The notes beneath the pieces were generated by a model, which was given only the letters and a program-made list of their open reading frames with translations, did no database searches and was not told the DNA's origin. The position numbers and the translations under genes are program-made. A DNA stretch of 64,000 nucleotides, from the IMG/VR virus record IMGVR_UViG_3300005841_000939; one strand, written 5' to 3'. Within the stretch, counting starts at the first letter, position 1, and each line of letters opens with the position of its first letter. Shown here one piece after another: positions 11,877 to 63,979 of the stretch. The DNA comes from a virus. Taxonomy: Duplodnaviria > Caudoviricetes.

Positions 11877-12080
11877 ATGCTGCTCATGTCATCCAATGCG
11901 TTCCTCCCTCATCACCTTTCAGTCCTGAATGAACGTGGTGAAATCAACCGAGTTCAAAAAGGAGTGTTCATCAATGTCACCAAGGTTAATAAATCGTTGG
12001 TGCAAGTGAATTTCTCAAAGATTCAGGATGCTGAATTCATCGTGCAGCCCTCTCAGGAGGTGGTGGCTGGTGGGGTCTAA
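11877..12080 (+). CDS. hypothetical protein
   Basis: AAGGT RBS. Confidence 0.5.
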   Translation: MLLMSSNAFLPHHLSVLNERGEINRVQKGVFINVTKVNKSLVQVNFSKIQDAEFIVQPSQEVVAGGV

Positions 12081-12235
12081 CCCTGCCTTCACCTCGCGGC
12101 TGCCGTTAGTTATCATGCTTGAGGGTAGATGCAAGGATGAAGGTGAGAAGGAATGTCTACGGAAAACATCCTTGACTCCTAGAAAGAGTGTGCATGATGC
12201 GAGGTATCACCCATACCCATACAAGGGAAACGACC

Positions 12236-13021
12236 ATGACTGCTACTCTCATCGCCCACGCCGGATCGTATGTCGCCACCAAGGACCAGGTCTACGGCAG
12301 CAAGCCGGTGATGGATGCGTCCAAGACCTACGATCCCATCGGCCACGGACGCTTCGTGGACCTCATCGAGGAGGGCCTGGAGCGCAATAAGTGGAACGTC
12401 GCCAAGCGTTCCTACGCCCTCGGGAAGGAAGGCAATGGTCAGCTCTTCGGAGCGTATGACCTGGTCGCATCGGGCAACGCTGGCCACACGCTGTGTCTCG
12501 GCTTCCGCAACAGCACGGACAAGTCGCTGCAGGCTGGTCTGGCGTGCGGATCGCGTGTCTTCGTGTGCGATAATCTCGCATTCTCCTCGGACATCGTCAT
12601 CCAGACCAAGCATCGCGCCCACGTCCAGGAGAATCTGCCCAACCTGATCGACAAGGGCCTGGAAAAGTTCCTGATCGATGGCGCCGAACAGGAGAAGGAG
12701 TTCGCTTTCTGGAAGCAATTCCGGATCGATGTCGCTTCGGCCAGCAATCTCATCTGTCAGGCTGCTGAGGAGAAGGTGATCCATTCCGAACGTCTCATCA
12801 TCCCCGTGCGTGCTGAATTCATCAAGCCCCGTTTCAACGAATTCAATGACGGTGGGACGGCCTGGAGCCTGTACAACGCTTTCACCACGATTCATCGCCA
12901 TGTCCGTACTGATGTCGAGCCGGTGAACCAGTTCGGTGCGTTGAAGCTGACGCATGCGTTCATGCGCAAGGTGGCCCCGATGCCCAAGGAAACCACCCCG
13001 GCGGATGCGCTGGCCAACTGA
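12236..13021 (+). CDS. DUF932/DUF945-family protein
   Basis: LCLGFRNSTDKSLQAGLACGSRVFVCDNLAF and KH motifs. Confidence 0.85.
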   Translation: MTATLIAHAGSYVATKDQVYGSKPVMDASKTYDPIGHGRFVDLIEEGLERNKWNVAKRSYALGKEGNGQLFGAYDLVASGNAGHTLCLGFRNSTDKSLQAGLACGSRVFVCDNLAFSSDIVIQTKHRAHVQENLPNLIDKGLEKFLIDGAEQEKEFAFWKQFRIDVASASNLICQAAEEKVIHSERLIIPVRAEFIKPRFNEFNDGGTAWSLYNAFTTIHRHVRTDVEPVNQFGALKLTHAFMRKVAPMPKETTPADALAN

Positions 13022-13032
13022 GGCCAAACGAA

Positions 13033-13064
13033 AGATCCCTGGACTAACCACCCAGGGATTTTTT
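13033..13064 (+). terminator. intrinsic terminator
   Basis: ATCCCTGG..CCAGGGAT then TTTTTT. Confidence 0.85.
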
Positions 13065-13314
13065 ACCTGCAAAATTCCTGCGTTTTTTCAAGAATTTATG
13101 GCGGCTATCATGTTTTCTCTAGTTGTCAAGGAATCCTTTAAAAGTGGTTGCCTTATATAAGAAGAAAGGGGTCGTTCCGAACTGATTAGGAAGACCTACG
13201 AAATATTCCTTGACCTTGAAATAGAGGCATTAGATTGAACACATAACCCAAGCATGGGAAATGTAGCAAAGCTACCAAACCCCATGCGCAACTTCCCAAG
13301 AAAGGGAATGCATC

Positions 13315-13944
13315 ATGCGTAAGCTCATCTCTGTCCTCGTCGGTTCGGACACCAAGTACATCGGTGATCGCAACGGCTCCACCCTCGTCGCTCGCATGTC
13401 GGATGCCCATCGCTTCAACAGCGGTTCGGCCGAGCAGCGCGCCAAGGACTTCAAGTCCAGCGACTTCATCAAGCAGGCCGGTGGCACCACCCTGGTGGTG
13501 ATCGATGACGAGGGCAAGGCCAAGTCGGCCAGCGCCAAGGACGCGAAGGCCCCCAAGGCGAAGCGTGGTCGCCCGGCCAAGGCCACGACCGAGAAGGTCA
13601 AGGGCAAGCCGGGTCGCAAGCCCAAGGCCGAGAAGGTCGAGAAGGTGGCCAGCGGCAAGCGTGGTCGCCCGGCTGGTGCGGTCAGCGCCCTGATCGGCAA
13701 GCGCCAGATGGGCATGCTGATCGAGGACCTGAAGGCGGGGCTGCTCCCCTCGCTGCTGGAAGCGATCAAGGCCATCGTGATCCCCGCCCCGGCGGTGCCC
13801 GCGGTCGCCACCCCGTCGGCTCGTCGCGCCCCCGCCAAGGAAAAGGCCCAGGTCGCGGCCCCCGCGACGAATGCCCAGGGTGACCAGGCGAACGCCAGCG
13901 CCCAGGTCCAGACCCCGGCGACCAGCGGTACCCCGGCGGCCTGA
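13315..13944 (+). CDS. histone-like / AT-hook DNA-binding protein
   Basis: K/A/P-rich with KRGRP, KPGRKP, KRGRP; promoter TTGACC-N15-TAGATT at 13210-13236; most GC-rich gene in window. Confidence 0.75.
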   Translation: MRKLISVLVGSDTKYIGDRNGSTLVARMSDAHRFNSGSAEQRAKDFKSSDFIKQAGGTTLVVIDDEGKAKSASAKDAKAPKAKRGRPAKATTEKVKGKPGRKPKAEKVEKVASGKRGRPAGAVSALIGKRQMGMLIEDLKAGLLPSLLEAIKAIVIPAPAVPAVATPSARRAPAKEKAQVAAPATNAQGDQANASAQVQTPATSGTPAA

Positions 13945-13961
13945 TACAGCGAACTCGGCAA

Positions 13962-14004
13962 AGAGAAGCCCTGGGGTGTAAAAACCCTGGGGCTTCTCTT
14001 TTTT
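13962..14004 (+). terminator. intrinsic terminator
   Basis: GAGAAGCCCTGGGG..CCCTGGGGCTTCTC then T-run. Confidence 0.8.
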
Positions 14005-21970: not shown

Positions 21971-22142
21971 CAGGTCTCCATTCTAAGAACGCTTGGCATG
22001 TGTCAACAATACCTTCTTAACATGCATTTAAGCCTAGTCAAGAATTACCTTAGTATCTGATTAGACCTAAAAATGTTTATTGCTTTTTCACCTTAAGTCT
22101 TTACAGTCATCAACATACCAATCATACAGAAAGCGAATAATC

Positions 22143-24488
22143 ATGCTTGTAGCAACCAAGTCGGAACAAGTCGGTCGCCATGGGGAAATGAAAGTTTCCA
22201 CTCTGACCATCGATAATCCTGGCATGATGCTTGCGCACATGTTTGATACGATCTATACCAACAAGGCAAAAATCGTTGTTCAGGAGATCGCTTGCAATTG
22301 TCGCGATGCTCACAGAGAAGTAGGAAAGGCTGATGTTCCGATTACCATCAAGCTGCCGAACAAGCTTGACACTTCTTTGCAGTTCATTGATGAGGGTCCA
22401 GGCCTTTCTCCCCAACGAATCGATGCGATATACAACAGTGTCGGTGCATCTACCAAGCGCGGCAGCAACGATCAAACTGGCGGGTTTGGTATCGGATCAA
22501 AAACTCCTTGGTCCCTGACCAACATGTTCCTGGTCAAGACAACTGCCTGGGAAGGAGAAGGTGAAAATCGCGAATTGGTATATCGCGAATACACCATGCT
22601 CCGTGAAGGATTATTTTTCACTTGCAATCAAACTGGTGATCCTGAAGTGAAGGACCCTGCTCTGAATAAGAGCGGCACCATTATTGAAATGCAACTGGAG
22701 GAAAAGGAATGGCAGAATATTGAATCAGAAATTCAGAAAATCTTTATCTCATGGGATCCCAAGCCAAATATCCTTGGTTATTCTAGCGGTGAATGGGTTT
22801 GGAAAACCAGACTTGATCCGCTGTTTGAGGGAAAAGGTTGGAAAGTTTACAATGGTCAGGCTTATTACAATCACACGCATGTCTTCATGGACAATATTCC
22901 ATATCCGTTGGATTGGAGCGCAATGGAAACTGCGTTTGTCAGCTTGATGACTGATGTTTCAATTCCTGGAACTGCCACGGAAGAAATGAATGACATCGTC
23001 ATCAATAAGAACAATGATCCGATGACAAGTGCAAGAATTCGCACGTTGTGGCATCAGGCAGCAATCCTGCAAAATGTAACTTGCGGATTGTTCTTCAAGA
23101 CGGGTGAACTGGATCCCGCATTGAATCGTGAATCGTTGCAGTATACCCCTCAGACTGTTCGGCGCATTGTGGCTCGCATGTTGGCTGCAACTCAAATCAT
23201 CCTCACCACATATCAGAAAAAGGTTGAAGCTGCACCAACGTATGTTGCTGCATTGACCATGTGGAAGGAGTTGGCCAGCAACGTTATCAGAAATCTTATT
23301 TCAGGTTCGCGTGCCAACTGGCGGGGACTGCCTCTGAATACTGCCATGACGATTCACTTCCCTGAATCAGTCATTGTAAACAAAGTGATGCTCCGCAGTA
23401 ATTATAGCCGTCGCGCCAAGTTTTCAATGCGGCAAGAGGAAAGCATCAAACTGGAGGGAATTGATCAAAAGAAGCAAATTTTCGTCAACACTGGCTACAA
23501 CGAACGCAATGTACGCCATTACATGGAGCAAAATAACTTTGGTGGAAATAGCTATGACAGGGAATGCTTATATTTCCTGAGCTTCAAGCCAGGGTTCTCT
23601 GATCGTACTCTTCCACTCCCTGACATTGATGCTAAGGTCATGGAAGAAAGGTTCTTCAAGTCTGATCTATGGGTCGGTTTGGAACATGGTGGCAACAGTG
23701 ATCAGTTCCCGAAAAGGCCGATTATCAGAAATTCAGCAACGGGAAGTCGCGGACCGAAGAAGGATCCCCTCGCTGCCAATATATGGAATTCTGGTTTGAA
23801 GAAATTCCATGCATCTGATGTGATGCTGTCAGTTGACGAGGAAGATGAATCTGAGGATGCCGATCAAAAGGACATCGTCTATGTCTTGACTTTCCGAAAG
23901 GACTGCAACGAATTCAATGGCGACCAATTGAATACGTTGGAACATGCATTGAACATTTCCATCTATGGCGTTTCGGAACGCTTGAAGCATCGCATCCCTG
24001 ATCATTGGGTATCACTTGGGGAAAAGGCACGTGAATGGTTGTCTCAACAGCCTTTGGATTCAACTATCGCCGAATACATTCGCAAGCGCAATATCAATTC
24101 GGTGATGATCAATGCTTGCAAGGATATTTCTGCATCATTTGCAAGCATCATGGCAGATCCGGATTTGGAACAACTTGTCACTGCACCCGATTGGATTGAA
24201 ATGGCCCGTCTCTTCAAGACGACATTCAATTCAGAAACTCAATTGGATACGACTCCTGAATCCAATATCCTCAAGAAAATCAAGGACGTCAACAAAGTCC
24301 TGAGCAATCCACTGACGATTCCCGATATGCCTGAAGCAGAAGAAACCTCTCCTGAAGCAGAAGCTTTGAAAGCTCTGGTTGAAAAGTATTACTTGGTGAG
24401 GCAGGCTGCTGCAAGCTATACGCTTGATGCAACAGTGCTCAATCGCATCATTCCAGACCTGGCTATCTTCATTAATGCCAAAGGATAA
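22143..24488 (+). CDS. rIIA: rIIA-like protein (GHKL ATPase N-terminus)
   Basis: IYTNKAKIVVQEIACNCRDAH, DEGPGLS, STKRGSNDQTGGFGIGSK motifs; upstream of rIIB. Confidence 0.9.
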   Translation: MLVATKSEQVGRHGEMKVSTLTIDNPGMMLAHMFDTIYTNKAKIVVQEIACNCRDAHREVGKADVPITIKLPNKLDTSLQFIDEGPGLSPQRIDAIYNSVGASTKRGSNDQTGGFGIGSKTPWSLTNMFLVKTTAWEGEGENRELVYREYTMLREGLFFTCNQTGDPEVKDPALNKSGTIIEMQLEEKEWQNIESEIQKIFISWDPKPNILGYSSGEWVWKTRLDPLFEGKGWKVYNGQAYYNHTHVFMDNIPYPLDWSAMETAFVSLMTDVSIPGTATEEMNDIVINKNNDPMTSARIRTLWHQAAILQNVTCGLFFKTGELDPALNRESLQYTPQTVRRIVARMLAATQIILTTYQKKVEAAPTYVAALTMWKELASNVIRNLISGSRANWRGLPLNTAMTIHFPESVIVNKVMLRSNYSRRAKFSMRQEESIKLEGIDQKKQIFVNTGYNERNVRHYMEQNNFGGNSYDRECLYFLSFKPGFSDRTLPLPDIDAKVMEERFFKSDLWVGLEHGGNSDQFPKRPIIRNSATGSRGPKKDPLAANIWNSGLKKFHASDVMLSVDEEDESEDADQKDIVYVLTFRKDCNEFNGDQLNTLEHALNISIYGVSERLKHRIPDHWVSLGEKAREWLSQQPLDSTIAEYIRKRNINSVMINACKDISASFASIMADPDLEQLVTAPDWIEMARLFKTTFNSETQLDTTPESNILKKIKDVNKVLSNPLTIPDMPEAEETSPEAEALKALVEKYYLVRQAAASYTLDATVLNRIIPDLAIFINAKG

Positions 24489-24555: not shown

Positions 24556-25488
24556 ATGTCAAAGAACAAGCGCAAAATCATCCTCACTGAGAACCAGGTG
24601 GCACTGACCATCAAGGGGCAGACGAGAACCATCAACAAGAAACATCCTGCATTCAAAAAGGTGCTGGACCTCATTCACGTCGGTGGCAGTGATGAAGACC
24701 TGTTGAAGGCCATCGAACCCGTCAAAGCCATCAACACCAGCAAGAAGGCTGCGAATTGGGGCATCAAGGTGGTGGATGGTTCCATCAAAATGCAGGAAGA
24801 GGTGCTGCCCGCTGATATTGCGGATACCATTCTCGAATTCAAAGCTGCAAACGAACCGTTCGAACCGCTGGTGAAGTTCTACGAGAACTGCAAGCTGAAT
24901 CCTGATGTGCGTGTCAAGGAAGGTCTCTTCCGGTTCTTGAAGGCTCATCGCTTCCCTCTGACGGAAGATGGTTGCTTCATCGGCTATCGCAAAGTCGCAA
25001 ACGACTTCAAGGACTTCTATACTGGCAAGCTCGACTTCTCCCCCGGCCAGACTGTGACCTTGGATCGCAGTCTTTGCGATTCGGACAATAACAATACGTG
25101 CTCCCGTGGTTTGCACGTCGCCAACTTCCGCTATGCGAAGGAAGTCTATCATCCTGGCTCCGGCAAGATGATCAACGTCAAGATCAATCCCCGTGATGTG
25201 GTCGCATTCCCAACGGACTATCATTTCGAGAAAATGCGCGTGTGCGCAATGTACGTCATCGGCGAGAATGGTACCAGCGAAGCTGATGCCCAAGAATATC
25301 AGGAGCTGTTCAAGCAGCAGAATCCTGATTGGAAAAAGAATGACAAGGACGTTGACGAAGCTGAGGAAGAAGACATCGAAACTGGTGCTGTCAGTGTCAA
25401 GGGCAATCCCCAGGATGCTGTCGAAATTCCGGTCTGGATGTCACAGAAGCGTGACGCTCGCGGTCGCTTCGGCAAGGTCAAGAAGTAA
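24556..25488 (+). CDS. rIIB: rIIB-like protein
   Basis: LTEDGCFIGYRKV, CSRGLHV, VKINPRDVVAFPTDY..KMRVC motifs; own promoter TTGACA-N16-TAGAAT (24492-24519). Confidence 0.92.
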   Translation: MSKNKRKIILTENQVALTIKGQTRTINKKHPAFKKVLDLIHVGGSDEDLLKAIEPVKAINTSKKAANWGIKVVDGSIKMQEEVLPADIADTILEFKAANEPFEPLVKFYENCKLNPDVRVKEGLFRFLKAHRFPLTEDGCFIGYRKVANDFKDFYTGKLDFSPGQTVTLDRSLCDSDNNNTCSRGLHVANFRYAKEVYHPGSGKMINVKINPRDVVAFPTDYHFEKMRVCAMYVIGENGTSEADAQEYQELFKQQNPDWKKNDKDVDEAEEEDIETGAVSVKGNPQDAVEIPVWMSQKRDARGRFGKVKK

Positions 25489-29334: not shown

Positions 29335-29616
29335 ATGTGGAAAGAAATCAAAGAGAAGGTTGATAGCTCCTGCTACTTCTTCGCAATCGTTGGGGCAACC
29401 CTGACCTTTTGCGTATGCTTCTTTTTGGCACTCAAGTCTGGTGCGCTATTCAGCATCATCGGATTGGGCTTGGTAATTCTCTCACCCATCATCGGCGCGT
29501 TCATTGGTGGCATGATCTTTGGGGTGTTCTTGGCATTCCCCCTCATTGTGGTTTGGGAAGTGCTGATCCTCCCCATCGTTCGCATCCTCAATTCTCACAA
29601 CAGCCGTCATCACTGA
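29335..29616 (+). CDS. integral membrane protein
   Basis: three hydrophobic segments, AAGGA RBS. Confidence 0.7.
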   Translation: MWKEIKEKVDSSCYFFAIVGATLTFCVCFFLALKSGALFSIIGLGLVILSPIIGAFIGGMIFGVFLAFPLIVVWEVLILPIVRILNSHNSRHH

Positions 29617-29618
29617 TC

Positions 29619-29933
29619 ATGCCCTGGCCAGGTAAATGTCCCTATTGCAATGAGGTCATGACTACTCGGCGTGGACCGTCAGAAGTCACTAATGACCATA
29701 TCATCCCTTTAAACAAAGGTGGTGATACGAACGATGCCAATACCATCTACGTGTGCCAAAAGTGCAACAACGTCAAAAGCAACCATCTCCCATGCGATCC
29801 TGAATGGGGCAATGATCCTAGAAGAGTCATCATCACTAATCGTGTATTGAAAATTATCTTTGATAGGAAATTGGCGTACCCTTGGGAAAAACACGTCAAA
29901 GACCTTAAAATAGATAAACAAGATGCCTCATAA
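29619..29933 (+). CDS. HNH endonuclease
   Basis: CPYC..DHIIPLNKGG..N..CQKCNNVK. Confidence 0.9.
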   Translation: MPWPGKCPYCNEVMTTRRGPSEVTNDHIIPLNKGGDTNDANTIYVCQKCNNVKSNHLPCDPEWGNDPRRVIITNRVLKIIFDRKLAYPWEKHVKDLKIDKQDAS

Positions 29934-30356: not shown

Positions 30357-30563
30357 TCAATATCCTGACAGCATGTTGAATCGTTTTCGGTCATCTAAGA
30401 AATCCCGAACAATATCTGATATAGATTTTGGTTCAATCAATGGATGATCATACCTATTGTTTTGTTGTTCTAATATAAAAGGAAACATAACATCAATACC
30501 ATATATTGATTCAAAATCTTGTATGGCTTCTTGAGTGTATTTTATTTTCATGATTCTATTCAT
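30357..30563 (-). CDS. KxxR-family protein (divergent)
   Basis: QNNRYDH. Confidence 0.5.
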   Translation of the reverse strand: MNRIMKIKYTQEAIQDFESIYGIDVMFPFILEQQNNRYDHPLIEPKSISDIVRDFLDDRKRFNMLSGY

Positions 30564-31291: not shown

Positions 31292-31492
31292 TCATATATA
31301 TTTCTTTAGTATAAAACTTTCCCAGGTATAAACCATATCACTAATATCATAAGTAATTATGGAATGTCTGGATTCTTTTGGTAAGGCTAATAAGTTTTGA
31401 GTAAAAAAGAAAAAATTATCCCATTCAGGACTGTCCCGTTCAAATACTAACGGAACTCTAATAAATTCATTTATTTGAATCCTATTTGCCAT
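31292..31492 (-). CDS. KxxR-family protein
   Basis: KESRHS..TWESF. Confidence 0.65.
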   Translation of the reverse strand: MANRIQINEFIRVPLVFERDSPEWDNFFFFTQNLLALPKESRHSIITYDISDMVYTWESFILKKYI

Positions 31493-31847
31493 ATACGTAA
31501 TTCAAATGGTAAATATCACCAGCACTGGTACCACGTCTAGGATATACTTTCTTTCTACCATTCATGAAACAATCAACAACTTCTTTCCATGTTGATTTAA
31601 TTAATCTCTTCTTGTATTCCTTTGTGTAATCATATCGGTTATCTGTAGCATCCAAATCCATTACAGGATCACCACCCATAGGCTGAACACTTATTAAATC
31701 TTCTATAACTAAAGAAGGGAATGACTGCATAATAGTCGGAAATGCCATGCTATCAAACCCACCAATAGTAGTATTAGGCTTTTTTAAATCATCAGCCCAT
31801 TGTTGTGTATTCTTTAATAATTCGTCTATGTTACTCATTATCTCCAA
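31482..31847 (-). CDS. chimera: T4-type major capsid fragment plus KxxR module
   Basis: GFDSMAFPTIMQSFPSLVIEDLISVQPM and GDIYHLNYVYG flank TDNRYDY..KSTW. Confidence 0.8.
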   Translation of the reverse strand: MEIMSNIDELLKNTQQWADDLKKPNTTIGGFDSMAFPTIMQSFPSLVIEDLISVQPMGGDPVMDLDATDNRYDYTKEYKKRLIKSTWKEVVDCFMNGRKKVYPRRGTSAGDIYHLNYVYGK

Positions 31848-32389: not shown

Positions 32390-32734
32390 TTAACCTAAAT
32401 TAATTTTATAGGACTGAGTATTATCAAACAATATCTCCATAAGCTTTGCAGTACTATTACGCTTTATATGTCTTTCTGCATATCTTTCAACTAGTGATTC
32501 CCATGTAATCTCTATGTTATCCTTTCTATATGTTTTTAAGAAAGGTGAATATCCATACCGTGTTTCTTTATGACTATAAACTAATTCACCATATTTCCTA
32601 GCAACAGCTTTTGGAATAGGTCTATCACAGGAAACTAATTCAGATGGAATAAAATTTGGAAAAGGGGCATTAACTGTCGGGAAATGTATATCATCAAAAC
32701 TCATTTTAAATTTCCTTTTGCAGCATATTTCCAT
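32390..32734 (-). CDS. chimera: degenerate capsid fragment plus KxxR module
   Basis: FDDIHFPTVNAPFPNFIPSELVS then KETRYGY..ITWESLVERY. Confidence 0.7.
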   Translation of the reverse strand: MEICCKRKFKMSFDDIHFPTVNAPFPNFIPSELVSCDRPIPKAVARKYGELVYSHKETRYGYSPFLKTYRKDNIEITWESLVERYAERHIKRNSTAKLMEILFDNTQSYKINLG

Positions 32735-32898
32735 CTAGATTCGGATATTAAATTATCCCATGTTGCTTTAACATTACCAGAATCATAATTATATCCTTTG
32801 TAATTGTTTCGGGTTTCTTTAAGAAATAAATCAATAAATTTGTAAGAAACATCAAATTCTCTTAAATAAATTCCTGGTTTTATATAATTTGTACTCAT
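32701..32898 (-). CDS. chimera: tail-sheath-like N-terminus plus KxxR module
   Basis: YIKPGIYLREFDVS then KETRNNY..ATWDNL. Confidence 0.72.
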   Translation of the reverse strand: MSTNYIKPGIYLREFDVSYKFIDLFLKETRNNYKGYNYDSGNVKATWDNLISESRWKYAAKGNLK

Positions 32899-40156: not shown

Positions 40157-40383
40157 TAAACTAAACCTTTAAACTCTATTCCATTATCGGAATCTTTATA
40201 CATAAAAAAGGATTTAGAATTATTCAGGAAAAGAAATTTAGTTAATATATATTTCCACTTGTTGTTTATTTGTTTAAACGAATCGGATTTATAGTTTTCT
40301 CTATATTCTTTTGTTAAAAATGCTGAAATAGATATAGATACAGGATCTATCGGGAAGTTTTCCATAATTATTTTTCTAAACAA
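40156..40383 (-). CDS. KxxR-family protein
   Basis: KEYRENY..KWKYILTKF. Confidence 0.65.
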   Translation of the reverse strand: MFRKIIMENFPIDPVSISISAFLTKEYRENYKSDSFKQINNKWKYILTKFLFLNNSKSFFMYKDSDNGIEFKGLV

Positions 40384-40735
40384 AATTTAATAATTTATAA
40401 TTGTGATTTTTTAAGATTGAATATCGTGATCGTAAACCTATATTTGGTTTTATGTCTTCTTTCTTAAAAAAATTAATAATTAAATTTTGCCAGGACTCTT
40501 TGATAGTGTTTAATGCATATTCTGATTTAAAATTATTTCTATTTTCTTTATTTAATTCAATTTCATAAACAGAATTATTGAAATTAATTGGCACATATGG
40601 AGCATAAACATAACCAACATCCCAAGTATCATCAAACCTTTTTGTATATTTTAAAACATCATCTTTTAAAATATTTAATATTTCATCTTCTATTTCTTTT
40701 TTATATTTTTCAACAAGCTCATCAATATTTTTCAT
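40376..40735 (-). CDS. chimera: telescoped T4-type capsid C-terminal motifs plus KxxR module
   Basis: EIEDEILNIL, DVGYVYAPYVPI and KPNIGLRSRY around KENRNNF..ESWQNL. Confidence 0.8.
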   Translation of the reverse strand: MKNIDELVEKYKKEIEDEILNILKDDVLKYTKRFDDTWDVGYVYAPYVPINFNNSVYEIELNKENRNNFKSEYALNTIKESWQNLIINFFKKEDIKPNIGLRSRYSILKNHNYKLLNFV

Positions 40736-55213: not shown

Positions 55214-56866
55214 TTAGAGACTGACCTGCTTCCATCCGCTATCATTCCACGATCCGGTTCCATTTGGATGTGAAAAGATGTTATCAGGGAATTGATGGTC
55301 AATTAATTTTGATTTGGTGGGGGTTTTCTGTGCGAATGCCAAAGTTTTATCACTAATTGGTACCACGACAACACCCACAGGAGTTAATGAGAAAATTGGG
55401 CTATGAAACGTGTGGCTTGAATCTAGGATAGTATGCGTACCTTCCGAATTCCAGTAATGCATTTCATACAAGCCTTGCTTCTCAGTAACTAGAATGAGGT
55501 TTCCATATTCTGAATGCCAGGCTGCTATCTTCTTGCCCTTTATTTCTTTCAACGCAACATCTACAAATTTATTTTGTCCGAGATACGCTTTCCAATATGG
55601 CATACCGAGTAAGTAATGAATGAAATTACCAGCAACTCCATTTTTAATTCCAGGAGTTGTTTCACCAACAGCCTTGCTGGTAAGAACCCAATTGATACCA
55701 ACCTTGGTAAATGAATAGTGGAAAATCTTACCATCCTGATTTACTACAAAGAAAGTATTATCGTTTGACAGATACCAATGCTTTGCATTAGGATGAGTCA
55801 TATATTGATTATGATTTGAATCTAGGATCTTATCATCCTTACGATAAAACCATTGCTGCTTATTCTCAGGATGGGTAATGATCCACGTTGAATTATCCAA
55901 TGCAACGTTTGCAGGATAAATGTTTTGATTGATATAGACGTTGCTTGCTGACCATGCAACTACAGTTCCATTTGCCATGCCATAACAGCCCAGCAAATCA
56001 TTTGCGTGTTGCTCATTACTGATTTTCCAACCAACAATTTGTGCAATCTTCTGAACCATCTGAATAACAGCGCCGCGAACAAATCCTGGAGGAGCTGAAC
56101 GCTTACCATTTTGGAAAACATCTTTGTACCAATCCAACATTGGACCAGGTATTGCGCTCCAATCTCTCACAACTGGAGAAACTTTCACACTTGAATCAAA
56201 CACAGAAAGATTCAAACGCATTCTTTCTGTGAATGAAAGTCCCTTTGGTTCTTTGCCTTTGAATGGATGAATGCCCGTCCACAATTGAAATGTGACAATC
56301 CCCCAACCATACCAATCAGATTCTTTATTGAACTTATTATTTTTCTCAGTCAATGGATCACGGACAGATGCCATGATTGCTGTTGCATGATGCGATGGTG
56401 TTTGCCATGCATCGGTATCAATAATCGTAGTTGACCAATTGACTTCATCAAGAAGCCAATTCATTTCATTTGCATCAACTATCAAACAATTTGCATCATG
56501 GACAGATTGCATAATCTCTGCCATTTCTTTACAAATGTTGTTGATGTTTTTACCTTTGAGATTTGCCCGAGTTTGTGCAGGAGTTGTAATATAAGTACAC
56601 AACGGTTTGCCACCCATGACAGCAGGCATCCAATATCCGATACGCTTGCCATTGGTATCGTAAATACTTCCTTCTGATTTTATAACACGTTTGTCTTTGA
56701 TCAAACTAAGTTCTTGCAACTTTGATTCAGGAATACCATTCGCAGGATCATGCCAAATTTTGTAGGCACGATCACCTTTCACATAAACTGTACCTTCACC
56801 ACCATCACCGACTTTCTCTTTGTCAGCAAGAGTGTAGAGCATTCCATTGTTGTCTTTAATTTTCAT
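55214..56866 (-). CDS. Ser/Thr protein kinase (TerY-P triad type)
   Basis: GDGGEGTVY glycine loop, AYKIW, IVDANEMNWL, IIDTD, DWYGWGIVTFQLWTGIHPF. Confidence 0.9.
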   Translation of the reverse strand: MKIKDNNGMLYTLADKEKVGDGGEGTVYVKGDRAYKIWHDPANGIPESKLQELSLIKDKRVIKSEGSIYDTNGKRIGYWMPAVMGGKPLCTYITTPAQTRANLKGKNINNICKEMAEIMQSVHDANCLIVDANEMNWLLDEVNWSTTIIDTDAWQTPSHHATAIMASVRDPLTEKNNKFNKESDWYGWGIVTFQLWTGIHPFKGKEPKGLSFTERMRLNLSVFDSSVKVSPVVRDWSAIPGPMLDWYKDVFQNGKRSAPPGFVRGAVIQMVQKIAQIVGWKISNEQHANDLLGCYGMANGTVVAWSASNVYINQNIYPANVALDNSTWIITHPENKQQWFYRKDDKILDSNHNQYMTHPNAKHWYLSNDNTFFVVNQDGKIFHYSFTKVGINWVLTSKAVGETTPGIKNGVAGNFIHYLLGMPYWKAYLGQNKFVDVALKEIKGKKIAAWHSEYGNLILVTEKQGLYEMHYWNSEGTHTILDSSHTFHSPIFSLTPVGVVVVPISDKTLAFAQKTPTKSKLIDHQFPDNIFSHPNGTGSWNDSGWKQVSL

Positions 56867-57699
56867 GACACGACAGTCCTGATGAGAGCAGCACATGAAA
56901 AGTCATCATGATGATAGATGGAATTCTTTCCCATCGTCTGACGCATCTTTCCCCAACACCGCTTTAAAAAGTTTCCATTGGTGTTTGGAATGTGAATCAA
57001 CTCGCGGATGATTTTATCAAATGGATAATTATCAACTACTGGAATACCATTTGAATTGGTAACTTTTTGTTTGAATGATGTAATACCATCAGTCATGATA
57101 AAAACTTTTAATGGACTGATGAAAGTAAATGCTTCAAAATCAGTTTTACTTTCAACGACATCAACATCAATGCCATTTCCTTGCGCATCATAATGAAATG
57201 TGCGAATAGTTTTTGTCATATCAACAGTTTTCAATGCTTCTCTTCTTTTATCGCTTAACAAATATGAAAGATAAAGCGGAGTATTCTCTTTGTAATCAAC
57301 AATGATGACATCATAAGAACCATCTGATTTGACGACACAAATTGTGCCATCGCCCCACATAGTTGCTTTGACATTATCTCCTTCAGTTGTTGCAAAAATG
57401 AGTGTTGCATCCAATGATTGCTGAACGATACCAGGAATATTTATTTGCTGGCAATGCGTAAAGTGAAGAATTGCATGCGCCATATCTTCCCACTTCGTGT
57501 AGTTGGCAGCATATGACGCAAAATTTGAAATGGCGAATGAAACTAAAAGTCTTGAACCCCAATCACTATCGGGTGAACTGCTGCAACCATCCGAAACACA
57601 CAAAAAAACATCAGTTGCTGATTTTGAAGTTCCAGCAAAATCCTGACAAACTTCATGATCGTGGCCGATACGATAAAAAGAATCTTTGACCCAACTCAT
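56863..57699 (-). CDS. PP2C-like protein phosphatase
   Basis: GHDHEVCQD, VSDGCSSS, GDG, IMTDG, HHDD motifs; ATGA overlap with kinase. Confidence 0.9.
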   Translation of the reverse strand: MSWVKDSFYRIGHDHEVCQDFAGTSKSATDVFLCVSDGCSSSPDSDWGSRLLVSFAISNFASYAANYTKWEDMAHAILHFTHCQQINIPGIVQQSLDATLIFATTEGDNVKATMWGDGTICVVKSDGSYDVIIVDYKENTPLYLSYLLSDKRREALKTVDMTKTIRTFHYDAQGNGIDVDVVESKTDFEAFTFISPLKVFIMTDGITSFKQKVTNSNGIPVVDNYPFDKIIRELIHIPNTNGNFLKRCWGKMRQTMGKNSIYHHDDFSCAALIRTVVS

Positions 57700-63235: not shown

Positions 63236-63979
63236 TCAGATAGAGATTGACTGAGAAGGACCACCGGTCCCAAGAGCCTGAGACTGAGCCGAAATGCTCT
63301 TGCTCACGAACTGCGCCAGCTTGGCGATTGAGCTTTTCGTTGCATCCTTGATTTCAACGAATTGCGTGAACCCAGCATCCTGTTGGAGAGTGCGAAGTTC
63401 ATTGGCAACCTGAGAATCGCTCATGTTGACACCGACGAGAATTGAGACGATGCTTTCCAGCGATTCTTCCTTCATCATGGAAACCAGAGCTTCCTTGATG
63501 CGATCCTTGCCGTAGTTGCTGGAATTGTTCATGCCATCGGTGATCACGATGACGATGCCGTTTGCCGAGAAGTGCTGAGCATTCAGCGATTTGCCGTAAG
63601 CTGCCGTTGCTTCCACAGCATTGACGCATGCATCGTAGAGGGCAGTCATACCACCGTCACCGAGCAGGTTGGCATAGTCGCCAGCATTGATCGTCATCAG
63701 GGGCTTGAATCCGTGGAATTCTTTCAGCGCACTGCTGAAAGTGGTGACACGAATCAACAGGTTGTCTGCACGGGGACTGTAGCGACAGGCCTTGACGATT
63801 TCCTCCATGCAGTTGATCATGTCAGAACGGAAACTGTTGATGCTTCCCGAATCATCAACAGCGACAGTGATGAGGGTATATTCATCAGCGCCGAGGGATT
63901 CGATTTTCGTGGCCGAGAAGGTGAATGCACCAGGAAGCTTGAATTGTTCCAGGTCATCCGCTGCGTTGAGTTTGGGCAT
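63236..63979 (-). CDS. von Willebrand factor A domain protein (TerY-like)
   Basis: VDDSGS MIDAS, GMTALYDA, VITDG motifs; GGAG RBS. Confidence 0.9.
   Translation of the reverse strand: MPKLNAADDLEQFKLPGAFTFSATKIESLGADEYTLITVAVDDSGSINSFRSDMINCMEEIVKACRYSPRADNLLIRVTTFSSALKEFHGFKPLMTINAGDYANLLGDGGMTALYDACVNAVEATAAYGKSLNAQHFSANGIVIVITDGMNNSSNYGKDRIKEALVSMMKEESLESIVSILVGVNMSDSQVANELRTLQQDAGFTQFVEIKDATKSSIAKLAQFVSKSISAQSQALGTGGPSQSISI

What the first reader, a model, noticed from the sequence alone, without database searches (positions are those of the whole stretch)
31482..31847. Major-capsid 'Gol-region' fragment with the KxxR module inserted into it
Seen: GFDSMAFPTIMQSFPSLVIEDLISVQPM, then a roughly 48 aa block containing TDNRYDY..IKSTW, then GTSAGDIYHLNYVYG. 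Knowledge (recalled, not searched): T4-type major capsid proteins have a contiguous ..FPxVRRxFPxLIAxxLxSVQPM-xxPxGxIFxLxxxYG segment. In T4 gp23 this region (RRAIPNLIAFDICGVQPM) is the Gol peptide, which binds EF-Tu and activates the Lit protease. Inference: a stand-alone 121 aa capsid-epitope mimic that could be a decoy for capsid-sensing defences or a dominant-negative inhibitor of a competing phage's head assembly.
Basis: partly seen in the sequence, partly recalled or inferred. Interest (0 to 1): 0.88.

Follow-up and report, generated by a model that had tools for sequence, protein, structure and literature searches.

The report
Stand-alone mini capsid-protein N-arm gene
A small early-region gene of a ~380-kb T4-like soil phage copies the most conserved N-terminal peptide of the phage's major capsid protein, split by a helical insert. 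It belongs to a widespread, unannotated family of such "mini-capsid" proteins in huge phages, whose function is unknown.

Summary
ORF 31482-31838(-) encodes 118 aa from an ATG preceded by GGAG. It sits in a tightly packed, low-GC array of small genes beside rIIA/rIIB.

Residues 22-57 align to the gp23-type capsid N-arm that ends in VQPM. Residues 103-118 align to the strand that follows directly in T4-type gp23 (RB3 gp23 99-117 and 118-133). A 45-aa insert separates the two pieces.

The ORF is not a one-off. A profile search found about 160 clusters of 75-190-aa proteins with the same colinear architecture. They occur in metagenomic huge T4-like phages, including the 635-642-kb genomes LR745206 and LR756502. 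A profile built without this ORF recovers it at E 5e-7. The family profile matches capsid-protein residues 4-104 with 95% probability.

Related phages carry sets of such minis for other conserved capsid segments. This window also holds a C-terminal-type mini at 40376-40735 and a degenerate copy at 32390-32704.

The insert is ancient and family-wide. AlphaFold predicts it as one long helix, with flexible capsid-derived arms on either side.

Function is inferred only. The best guess is an early-made peptide mimic that competes for a partner of nascent capsid protein, such as an immune sensor, EF-Tu or GroEL. An assembly role is the main rival.

The parts
31482..31838 (-). CDS of the mini capsid N-arm protein (118 aa, ATG start; stop at 31482-31484)
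   Evidence: an identical 118-aa product is called on 9 contigs from several rhizosphere samples
31842..31845 (-). GGAG ribosome-binding site, 3 nt before the ATG; it overlaps the alternative TTG start
   Evidence: read from the sequence
31776..31838 (-). Residues 1-21: N-terminal helix (MSNIDELL...W...L), predicted with confidence. It resembles the N-terminal KW helix of gp23 and of family members, but its exact origin is uncertain.
   Evidence: pLDDT 86-87, helix 4-19
31668..31775 (-). Residues 22-57: capsid N-arm segment ending in VQPMGGD. It corresponds to RB3/T4-type gp23 99-117 and S-SRM01 gp23 72-109, the Gol region of T4.
31533..31667 (-). Residues 58-102: 45-aa insert, partly helical (65-84). 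It contains DNRYDY...IKSTW, the local array motif, and is colinear with the family's conserved helical insert.
31485..31532 (-). Residues 103-118: G..G.IY.L.YVYGK, equivalent to the capsid strand that follows VQPM directly (RB3 gp23 118-133). The ORF stops right after it, as in the family.
32390..32704 (-). Degenerate paralog (104 aa): N-arm-like FPT..FP..L.S plus the local module, without the terminal strand
   Evidence: blastp E 1e-7
40376..40735 (-). C-terminal-type mini (119 aa): capsid motifs D.GYVYAPYVPI and KPNIGLRSRYS separated by a module-bearing insert
   Evidence: (deleting 57-90 raises the capsid-HMM score from 9.5 to 24.6 bits, z = 6.2)
30357..30563 (-). Possible helix-type mini (68 aa): KYTQEAIQDFESIYGIDV resembles the end of the capsid spine-helix region, followed by NNRYDH. 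The evidence is weak.
   Evidence: E 0.035 among 1906 frames

Best explanation
Shown:
- The ORF is a real small gene of a T4-like jumbo phage.
- It is a divergent member of an unannotated family of 75-190-aa proteins.
- Family members are stand-alone copies of the first ~100-125 residues of the gp23-type major capsid protein. These comprise the N-terminal helix, the N-arm ending in VQPM (the Gol region of T4 gp23) and the next strand.
- The copy is interrupted between adjacent capsid residues by a ~45-48-aa insert.

Shown by prediction:
- The insert is one long helix.
- The capsid-derived arms have no confident fold of their own.

Shown by context:
- The gene lies in a polycistronic array of small genes with no T4-type late promoter on its strand.
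- Related phages encode sets of such minis, each carrying a different conserved capsid segment on the same helix.

Inferred mechanism:
- The protein is a linear-peptide mimic of nascent capsid protein mounted on a helical handle.
- It is made before the capsid protein and occupies a partner that recognises that peptide.
- The most likely partner is a host factor. It could be a sensor or abortive-infection protease that detects capsid protein, or EF-Tu or GroEL, which bind exactly this part of T4 gp23.
- The shared helix or tag would supply a common second contact or oligomerisation.
For: Homology and architecture.

Family:
- 162 representatives at E <= 1e-3, almost all 75-190 aa.
- Sequences share FP..LPIA..AA.TIG.DLVSV.PMGG, then an insert with NR..KID.I, then G.LFYLDY.YG.
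- An HMM built without this ORF finds it as the only hit in the window, at E 5.2e-7 and colinear over 113 of 128 positions.
- Family members hit the PHROG T4 major head profile at positions 2-90 of 444, down to E 3.7e-6.

Same-genome comparison:
- In the 636-kb contig L018 the mini lies two genes after its own gp23 and matches that protein's N-arm.
- In LR745206 the mini matches its own capsid residues 7-51 and 86-118, E 1e-18.

Sets of minis:
- A tandem trio of helix-type, C-terminal-type and N-terminal-type minis occurs in L020, L022 and L007.
- P0099 is a natural fusion of two types.

Structure:
- This ORF: pLDDT 62.8, with only helices confident.
- Canonical member P0010: insert helix 29-53 at pLDDT 87-92, arms at 56-64.

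Timing: no TATAAATA on the minus strand anywhere in the window.

Partners of this region in T4:
- Gol binds EF-Tu, the first ~100 aa bind more stably, and Gol is the most conserved part of gp23 (PMC3014915).
- The gp23 N-terminus directs fusion proteins to GroEL (PMC3012670).
Against: - There is no functional, expression or interaction data. No RNA run holds the locus.
- The phage's own gp23 could not be retrieved, so mimicry of its own capsid protein is unmeasured.
- In two relatives the mini sits among head genes: gp23, homing endonuclease, mini in L018; and portal, a 77-aa gene, mini, large terminase in L023. That placement fits an assembly role.
- A Gol-bearing peptide would activate rather than block a Lit-type protease.
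- This ORF's insert lacks the family's near-invariant NR..KI in register.
- Promoter inference rests on the T4 late consensus only. Sigma-70-like sites are not enriched in the array.
Confidence: 0.45

Rival explanations
1. Capsid-assembly accessory protein. The mini uses the capsid N-terminal helix and N-arm to dock on the scaffold, the portal or neighbouring capsid subunits of the phage's own very large prohead. There it would regulate nucleation or size, or be packaged. The helix motif would act as a head-targeting or coat-binding tag.
For: - In L018 the order is head maturation protease, gp23, homing endonuclease, mini.
- In L023 the order is portal, 77-aa gene, mini, large terminase.
- Canonical members keep the propeptide and an ..NE-type site where gp23 of T4-like phages is cleaved (the cleavage rule is recalled).
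- The core motif of the insert is a C-terminal tag on about 40 small proteins of LR745206: 42 instances against 1.35 expected, and 31 of 41 start 9-15 residues from the C-terminus. This is what a targeting signal would look like.
Against: - In this window the gene sits in an array with no late promoter on its strand.
- In LR745206 it lies 90 kb from gp23.
- In L020 and L022 the trio lies between UvsY-like and clamp-like genes and DNA polymerase, that is, among replication genes.
- This ORF lacks the NE site.
Confidence: 0.25
2. Weapon against co-infecting relatives. The mini would be a dominant-negative capsid N-arm that poisons lattice formation by a competitor's capsid protein.
For: - The mini carries the most conserved, inter-subunit N-arm segment.
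- The genomes are rich in homing endonucleases, so inter-phage conflict is common in these lineages.
Against: - Minis are as similar to their own capsid protein as to others: about 35% overall and about 16 of 25 residues in the N-arm core in L018. Self-poisoning would be hard to avoid.
- There is no evidence of a paired resistance change.
Confidence: 0.1
3. Non-functional debris. The ORF would be a telescoped remnant of partial capsid-gene duplication, created by recombination or homing-endonuclease activity and kept open by chance.
For: - Homing endonuclease genes lie next to some minis (HNH at window 29409-29933).
- Motif order is shuffled in some ORFs, such as L020 16008-16397.
Against: - About 160 diverged clusters keep the same start, insert length, end point and near-invariant residues.
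- The ORF has its own RBS and is tightly coupled to its neighbours.
- The sequence is identical in several independent samples.
Confidence: 0.05

Closest known systems
T4 gp23 N-terminal region / Gol peptide (Gol-Lit-EF-Tu exclusion; GroEL targeting)
   Same: The same stretch of the same protein family. Residues 22-57 and 103-118 correspond to T4-type gp23 99-133, and family members correspond to capsid residues ~4-125. In T4 this peptide alone binds EF-Tu, activates Lit, and targets fusion proteins to GroEL (PMC3014915, PMC3012670).
   Different: Here it is a separate gene and not part of the capsid protein. It is interrupted by a 45-aa helix, ends right after the first strand, and lies in a non-late array. 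No binding has been tested.
gp24-type vertex protein (full-length paralog of gp23)
   Same: It arose by duplication of the capsid gene within T4-like phages.
   Different: gp24 keeps the whole HK97 fold and is a structural subunit. The minis keep only short conserved segments and cannot form the fold.
DSAD1, a phage inhibitor of the tail-tube sensor DSR2 (PMC11087589)
   Same: It is a precedent for a small phage protein that blocks a sensor of a structural protein by competing for the sensor.
   Different: As far as I know, DSAD1 is not related in sequence to the tail tube protein it competes with; this was not tested here. In the present case the mimicry is by homology, and no sensor is known.
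P22-type scaffolding C-terminal coat-binding helix and T4 capsid-targeting sequences (recalled)
   Same: These are short terminal helices or tags that direct proteins to the procapsid. The family's insert core is such a recurring terminal tag in LR745206.
   Different: No sequence relation was found, and here the tag is internal. Targeting is untested.

Membership tests
gp23-type major capsid protein (Pfam PF07068 Gp23 / PHROG 138, HK97 fold) | Profile match above the curated threshold | tested here: not met
   Pfam gave no hit for this ORF. PHROG 138 gave E 0.13. Relatives score 11-16 bits against the Gp23 cut-off of 24.4.
gp23-type major capsid protein (Pfam PF07068 Gp23 / PHROG 138, HK97 fold) | Complete HK97 fold (spine helix, P and A domains; about 400-590 aa) | tested here: not met
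   The ORF is 118 aa. Only capsid positions ~65-116 of a 454-column profile are represented. AlphaFold finds no compact fold.
gp23-type major capsid protein (Pfam PF07068 Gp23 / PHROG 138, HK97 fold) | Homology of the N-arm segment ending in VQPM and of the following strand | tested here: met
   blastp E 2e-7. hhalign E 2.4e-5, and 95% probability with E 3.9e-8 at family level. Adjacent mapping to gp23 99-117 and 118-133.
Mini capsid N-arm family (defined here) | Colinear profile match over the whole length, using a profile built without the ORF | tested here: met
   E 5.2e-7, HMM positions 6-118 of 128 aligned to residues 3-120. It is the only hit among 534 window ORFs.
Mini capsid N-arm family (defined here) | Insert of ~45-48 aa between V.PMGG and G.LFY.DY.YG, with the ORF ending within a few residues after the strand | tested here: met
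   The insert spans residues 58-102, and the stop follows YGK directly.
Mini capsid N-arm family (defined here) | Near-invariant N-R..K-I in the insert helix | tested here: inconclusive
   In register the ORF has Y-K..L-I. An NR lies 9 residues earlier. The canonical insert HMM does not score it.
Gol peptide as a functional class (EF-Tu binder, Lit activator) | Binding to EF-Tu domains II/III and activation of Lit | not testable with these tools
   Only positional correspondence to the Gol region is shown (PMC3014915).
Inteins / intron-type insertions in conserved sites | Splicing junction residues (C/S/T at both junctions, terminal HN) and a size of 130 aa or more | tested here: not met
   The insert is 45 aa, starts with P/G and ends with RR|G. 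Family inserts likewise lack junction residues.

The most novel reading that the evidence does not exclude
Huge T4-like phages may encode a modular 'capsid-epitope display' system. It would consist of sets of small, early-made proteins, each presenting one conserved linear segment of the major capsid protein: the N-arm/Gol region, a helix segment, the YIDPY strand, or the C-terminal strands. All are mounted on a common tag helix. The helices would bundle into multivalent mimics that blind capsid-sensing immunity, or hijack EF-Tu or GroEL, before the real capsid protein is made. This ORF would be the N-arm unit of such a set in its phage.
Probability: 0.22. Interest if true: 0.95.

Novelty: categorically new. 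Interest (0 to 1): 0.82.

Why it matters
The conserved N-arm (Gol) region of gp23 is the textbook example of a capsid peptide sensed by a bacterial suicide system. Many newer defences are also triggered by capsid proteins. A widespread family of stand-alone, homology-based copies of exactly this peptide is an unrecognised class of phage gene, especially since sister genes copy other conserved capsid segments.

If these proteins are decoys, they would be the first anti-defence proteins that work by copying the trigger itself. They would also point directly at the epitopes that host sensors read. If instead they are assembly factors, they bear on how capsids of 400-700-kb phages are built.

In either case the family supplies about 160 diverse sequences, and complete genomes (LR745206, LR756502), in which the question can be tested. 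Neither Pfam nor PHROGs has a family for them. Full-text searches found no description of such genes.

Tried and rejected
Searches that found nothing:
- No whole genome is held for the window.
- An exact-pattern scan and a profile scan of IMG/VR found nothing.
- blastn of the region against phage records found nothing.
- A word-based protein search found only the ORF itself.
- A typical array member has no homolog outside this phage.

The phage's own gp23 could not be reached. Scan notes place it about 146 kb beyond the window. The encoding contigs on offer are too short, and records behind JGI loci cannot be searched.

Uninformative results:
- The ESM Atlas look-up scored below its recognition threshold.
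- No RNA runs hold the locus.
- All assemblies of this phage are 100% identical, so dN/dS cannot be computed.
- Fold searches were not run, because both models have low-confidence arms.

Ideas rejected:
- Intein or intron origin of the insert: it is too small and lacks junction residues.
- The tag motif being a DNA element such as a promoter. Conservation is codon-periodic, with free third positions, and does not extend into flanking DNA.
tblastn gives no sheath hit.
- The canonical insert being the same as the window's array module. The canonical insert HMM hits no array ORF.

Full report
**The gene.**
- The ATG at 31838 is preceded by GGAG at 31842-31845. The alternative TTG start overlaps that site.
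- Public gene calls give the 118-aa product, which occurs identically on nine contigs from several rhizosphere samples. The longest contig is 379,560 bp.
- The ORF overlaps its upstream neighbour by 8 nt and its downstream neighbour by 11 nt.
- It lies in a run of about 93 small minus-strand genes (30.1-55.3 kb, GC 26-34%). These follow a 41-58% GC block that carries rIIA (22080-24488) and rIIB (24556-25488). The host genome is therefore a T4-like jumbo phage.
- No TATAAATA occurs on the minus strand anywhere in the window. Sigma-70-like sites are not enriched. The array does not look late.

**The capsid likeness is real.**
- Pfam gives nothing, and PHROGs gives only weak major-head hits.
- tblastn against 50,697 phage records returns 406 records, almost all of them gp23 genes.
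- Pairwise blastp to the Synechococcus phage S-SRM01 capsid protein gives E 2e-7, with residues 22-69 against 72-121.
- hhalign against ten diverse gp23 sequences gives E 2.4e-5.
- Residues 22-57 best-align to RB3 (T4-type) gp23 99-117. The last 16 residues, aligned alone, best-align to 122-133. The spliced pieces align colinearly to 99-133.
- Deleting residues 57-104 raises the capsid-HMM score from 13.2 to 22.6 bits.
- On this ORF alone that gain is only z = 1.7 against shuffled tails, so adjacency rests partly on relatives.

**It belongs to a large, unannotated family.**
- One metagenome contig (L007) encodes a 164-aa protein with the same plan.
- A profile of the two proteins, searched against 1.84 billion representatives, found 162 proteins at E <= 1e-3. 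Almost all are 75-190 aa.
- Their common plan has four parts:
  - an optional N-terminal KWAPILE..W.S.YAE.HS helix region;
  - FP.LLPIA..AA.TIG.DLVSV.PMGG;
  - a ~45-48-aa insert around NR..KID.I;
  - G.LFYLDY.YG, followed soon by the stop codon.
- A profile of 79 members built without this ORF finds it as the only hit in the window, at E 5.2e-7 and colinear over nearly the full length.
- The family profile matches gp23 columns 4-104 with 95% probability, E 3.9e-8.
- Members hit the PHROG T4 major-head profile from position 2 to about 90, down to E 3.7e-6. They hit no other annotated family.
- A subgroup (P0008, P0014, P0017, P0023) carries the insert earlier. This leaves V.PMS.PSG.L.Y.DY.Y contiguous as in real capsid proteins and fixes the identity of the last strand.

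**Which genomes carry it.**
- Carriers are huge T4-like phages.
- A 635,887-bp contig (L018) has this order: T4-type portal, head protease, gp23 (589 aa), a homing endonuclease, then the mini. The mini matches its own gp23 N-arm.
- The complete 634,780-bp genome LR745206 and the 642,428-bp genome LR756502 also carry a mini.
- In LR745206 the mini (291407-291880) matches its own capsid residues 7-51 and 86-118 (E 1e-18) but lies 90 kb from that gene.

**Minis come in sets.**
- In L020, L022 and L007, three adjacent genes carry three different pieces:
  - the capsid helix segment (..EL..IL.EE...);
  - the C-terminal strands (YAPYI.., ..IKSRY);
  - the N-arm.
- Each of these carries the same helical insert.
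- Further ORFs carry the YIDPY strand or permuted motif orders.
- P0099 is a natural fusion of two types.
- This window holds, besides the present ORF:
  - a degenerate paralog at 32390-32704 (blastp E 1e-7);
  - a C-terminal-type mini at 40376-40735, where insert deletion raises the capsid score from 9.5 to 24.6 bits, z = 6.2;
  - a weak helix-type candidate at 30357-30563.

**The insert.**
- In a canonical member, AlphaFold2 predicts the insert as a single long helix (residues 29-53, pLDDT 87-92). The capsid-derived arms score 56-64.
- For this ORF the model has mean pLDDT 62.8, with a confident N-terminal helix (4-19) and an insert helix (65-84).
- The core of the insert is a recurrent protein tag. 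In LR745206 the pattern R-[DE]-x-K-I-[DN]-x-[IVL] occurs in 42 ORFs against 1.35 expected. In 31 of 41 cases it starts 9-15 residues from the C-terminus. Conservation is codon-periodic and does not extend into flanking DNA, so it acts at the protein level.
- In this window the analogous [NTSD]-R-x-x-[YFH] motif occurs 47 times in 41 of 93 array ORFs (16.9 expected). Of these, 26 lie within the first 25 residues (5.3 expected).
- jackhmmer seeded with this ORF's insert gathers array members. First-round E-values are only 0.03-0.05.
- The canonical insert HMM does not hit the array.
- The insert is therefore an old family feature that, in this phage, resembles the local module. It is not a recent insertion.

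**What it probably does.**
- Nothing here measures function.
- The anatomy is a rigid helix with flexible arms that copy the most conserved linear segment of gp23. This suggests a peptide mimic that folds on a partner.
- In T4, this very segment binds EF-Tu and activates the Lit protease. The first ~100 residues bind EF-Tu more stably, and the region is the most conserved part of gp23 (PMC3014915). The gp23 N-terminus also directs fusion proteins to GroEL (PMC3012670).
- Given the non-late context, I favour an early-made mimic that engages a host factor ahead of the capsid protein. That factor could be a capsid sensor, EF-Tu or GroEL.
- A plain Lit decoy is doubtful, because a Gol peptide is itself the activator.
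- The main rival is a head-assembly or head-targeted role. It is supported by the head-gene neighbourhoods in L018 and L023, by the retained propeptide, and by the tag-like motif.
- Dominant-negative action on competing phages, and non-functional debris, are less likely. The reasons are similarity to the phage's own capsid protein and family-wide conservation, respectively.

**Novelty.**
- Pfam and PHROGs hold no family for these proteins.
- Full-text searches for capsid decoys, mimics or fragments in phages returned nothing relevant. A 2026 review of anti-defence does not list such genes.
- The earlier notes of this scan that bear on this report are on the same window or genome.

Noticed in passing
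window 40376-40735 (-): A 119-aa ORF with two C-terminal gp23 motifs (D.GYVYAPYVPI and KPNIGLRSRYS) separated by a module-bearing insert. Removing residues 57-90 raises the capsid-HMM score from 9.5 to 24.6 bits (z = 6.2). Homologous 'C-type' minis exist in other phages: 8 clusters, plus L007 241-573 and L020 9712-10023.
   Followed up: partly
window 30100-55300 (-): An array of about 93 small genes. In 41 of them the motif [NTSD]-R-x-x-[YFH] occurs, typically as MK(I/E)NR(H/Q)TY at the N-terminus: 47 instances against 16.9 expected. A typical member has no homolog outside this phage.
   Followed up: partly
LR745206.1 (loci L028-L059), whole genome: About 40 small ORFs of this 635-kb phage end in a shared C-terminal peptide, R-D-x-K-I-D-x-I-L: 42 instances against 1.35 expected. 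This is the core of the mini family's insert helix. Conservation is codon-periodic, so it is a protein tag of unknown function.
   Followed up: partly
LR745206.1 207176-207907 (+): A 243-aa paralog of the C-terminal half of the capsid protein (matches its own gp23 435-531, E 2e-12) carrying the same C-terminal tag, 5 kb downstream of gp23. Smaller capsid-like fragments lie at 93266-93520, 554784-555284 and 255010-255237.
   Followed up: no
L023 8579-12027: A T4-type portal homolog of only 354 aa (Pfam positions 8-374 of 433), a 77-aa UVR-motif ORF, a mini N-arm gene and a 485-aa large terminase sit between replication-type genes. In relatives this position holds the three-mini set. It is unclear whether the portal gene is truncated or split.
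   Followed up: partly
window 32701-32898 (-): A neighbouring ORF that another note calls a 'sheath chimera'. tblastn against phage records gives no tail-sheath hit. It does carry the local module (KETRNNY...VKATW).
   Followed up: partly
window 55214-57699 and 63236-63979 (-): A protein-kinase-like gene (560 aa), a PP2C phosphatase (278 aa) and a VWA-domain protein (247 aa) lie at the far end of the array.
   Followed up: no
window 12001-14000: An isolated 58% GC block within a 41-48% GC region, with long overlapping ORFs on both strands. Unexplained.
   Followed up: no
window 29409-29933 (+): An HNH homing-endonuclease gene lies at the boundary between the rII block and the small-gene array. 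Homing endonucleases also flank minis in L018 and L020.
   Followed up: partly
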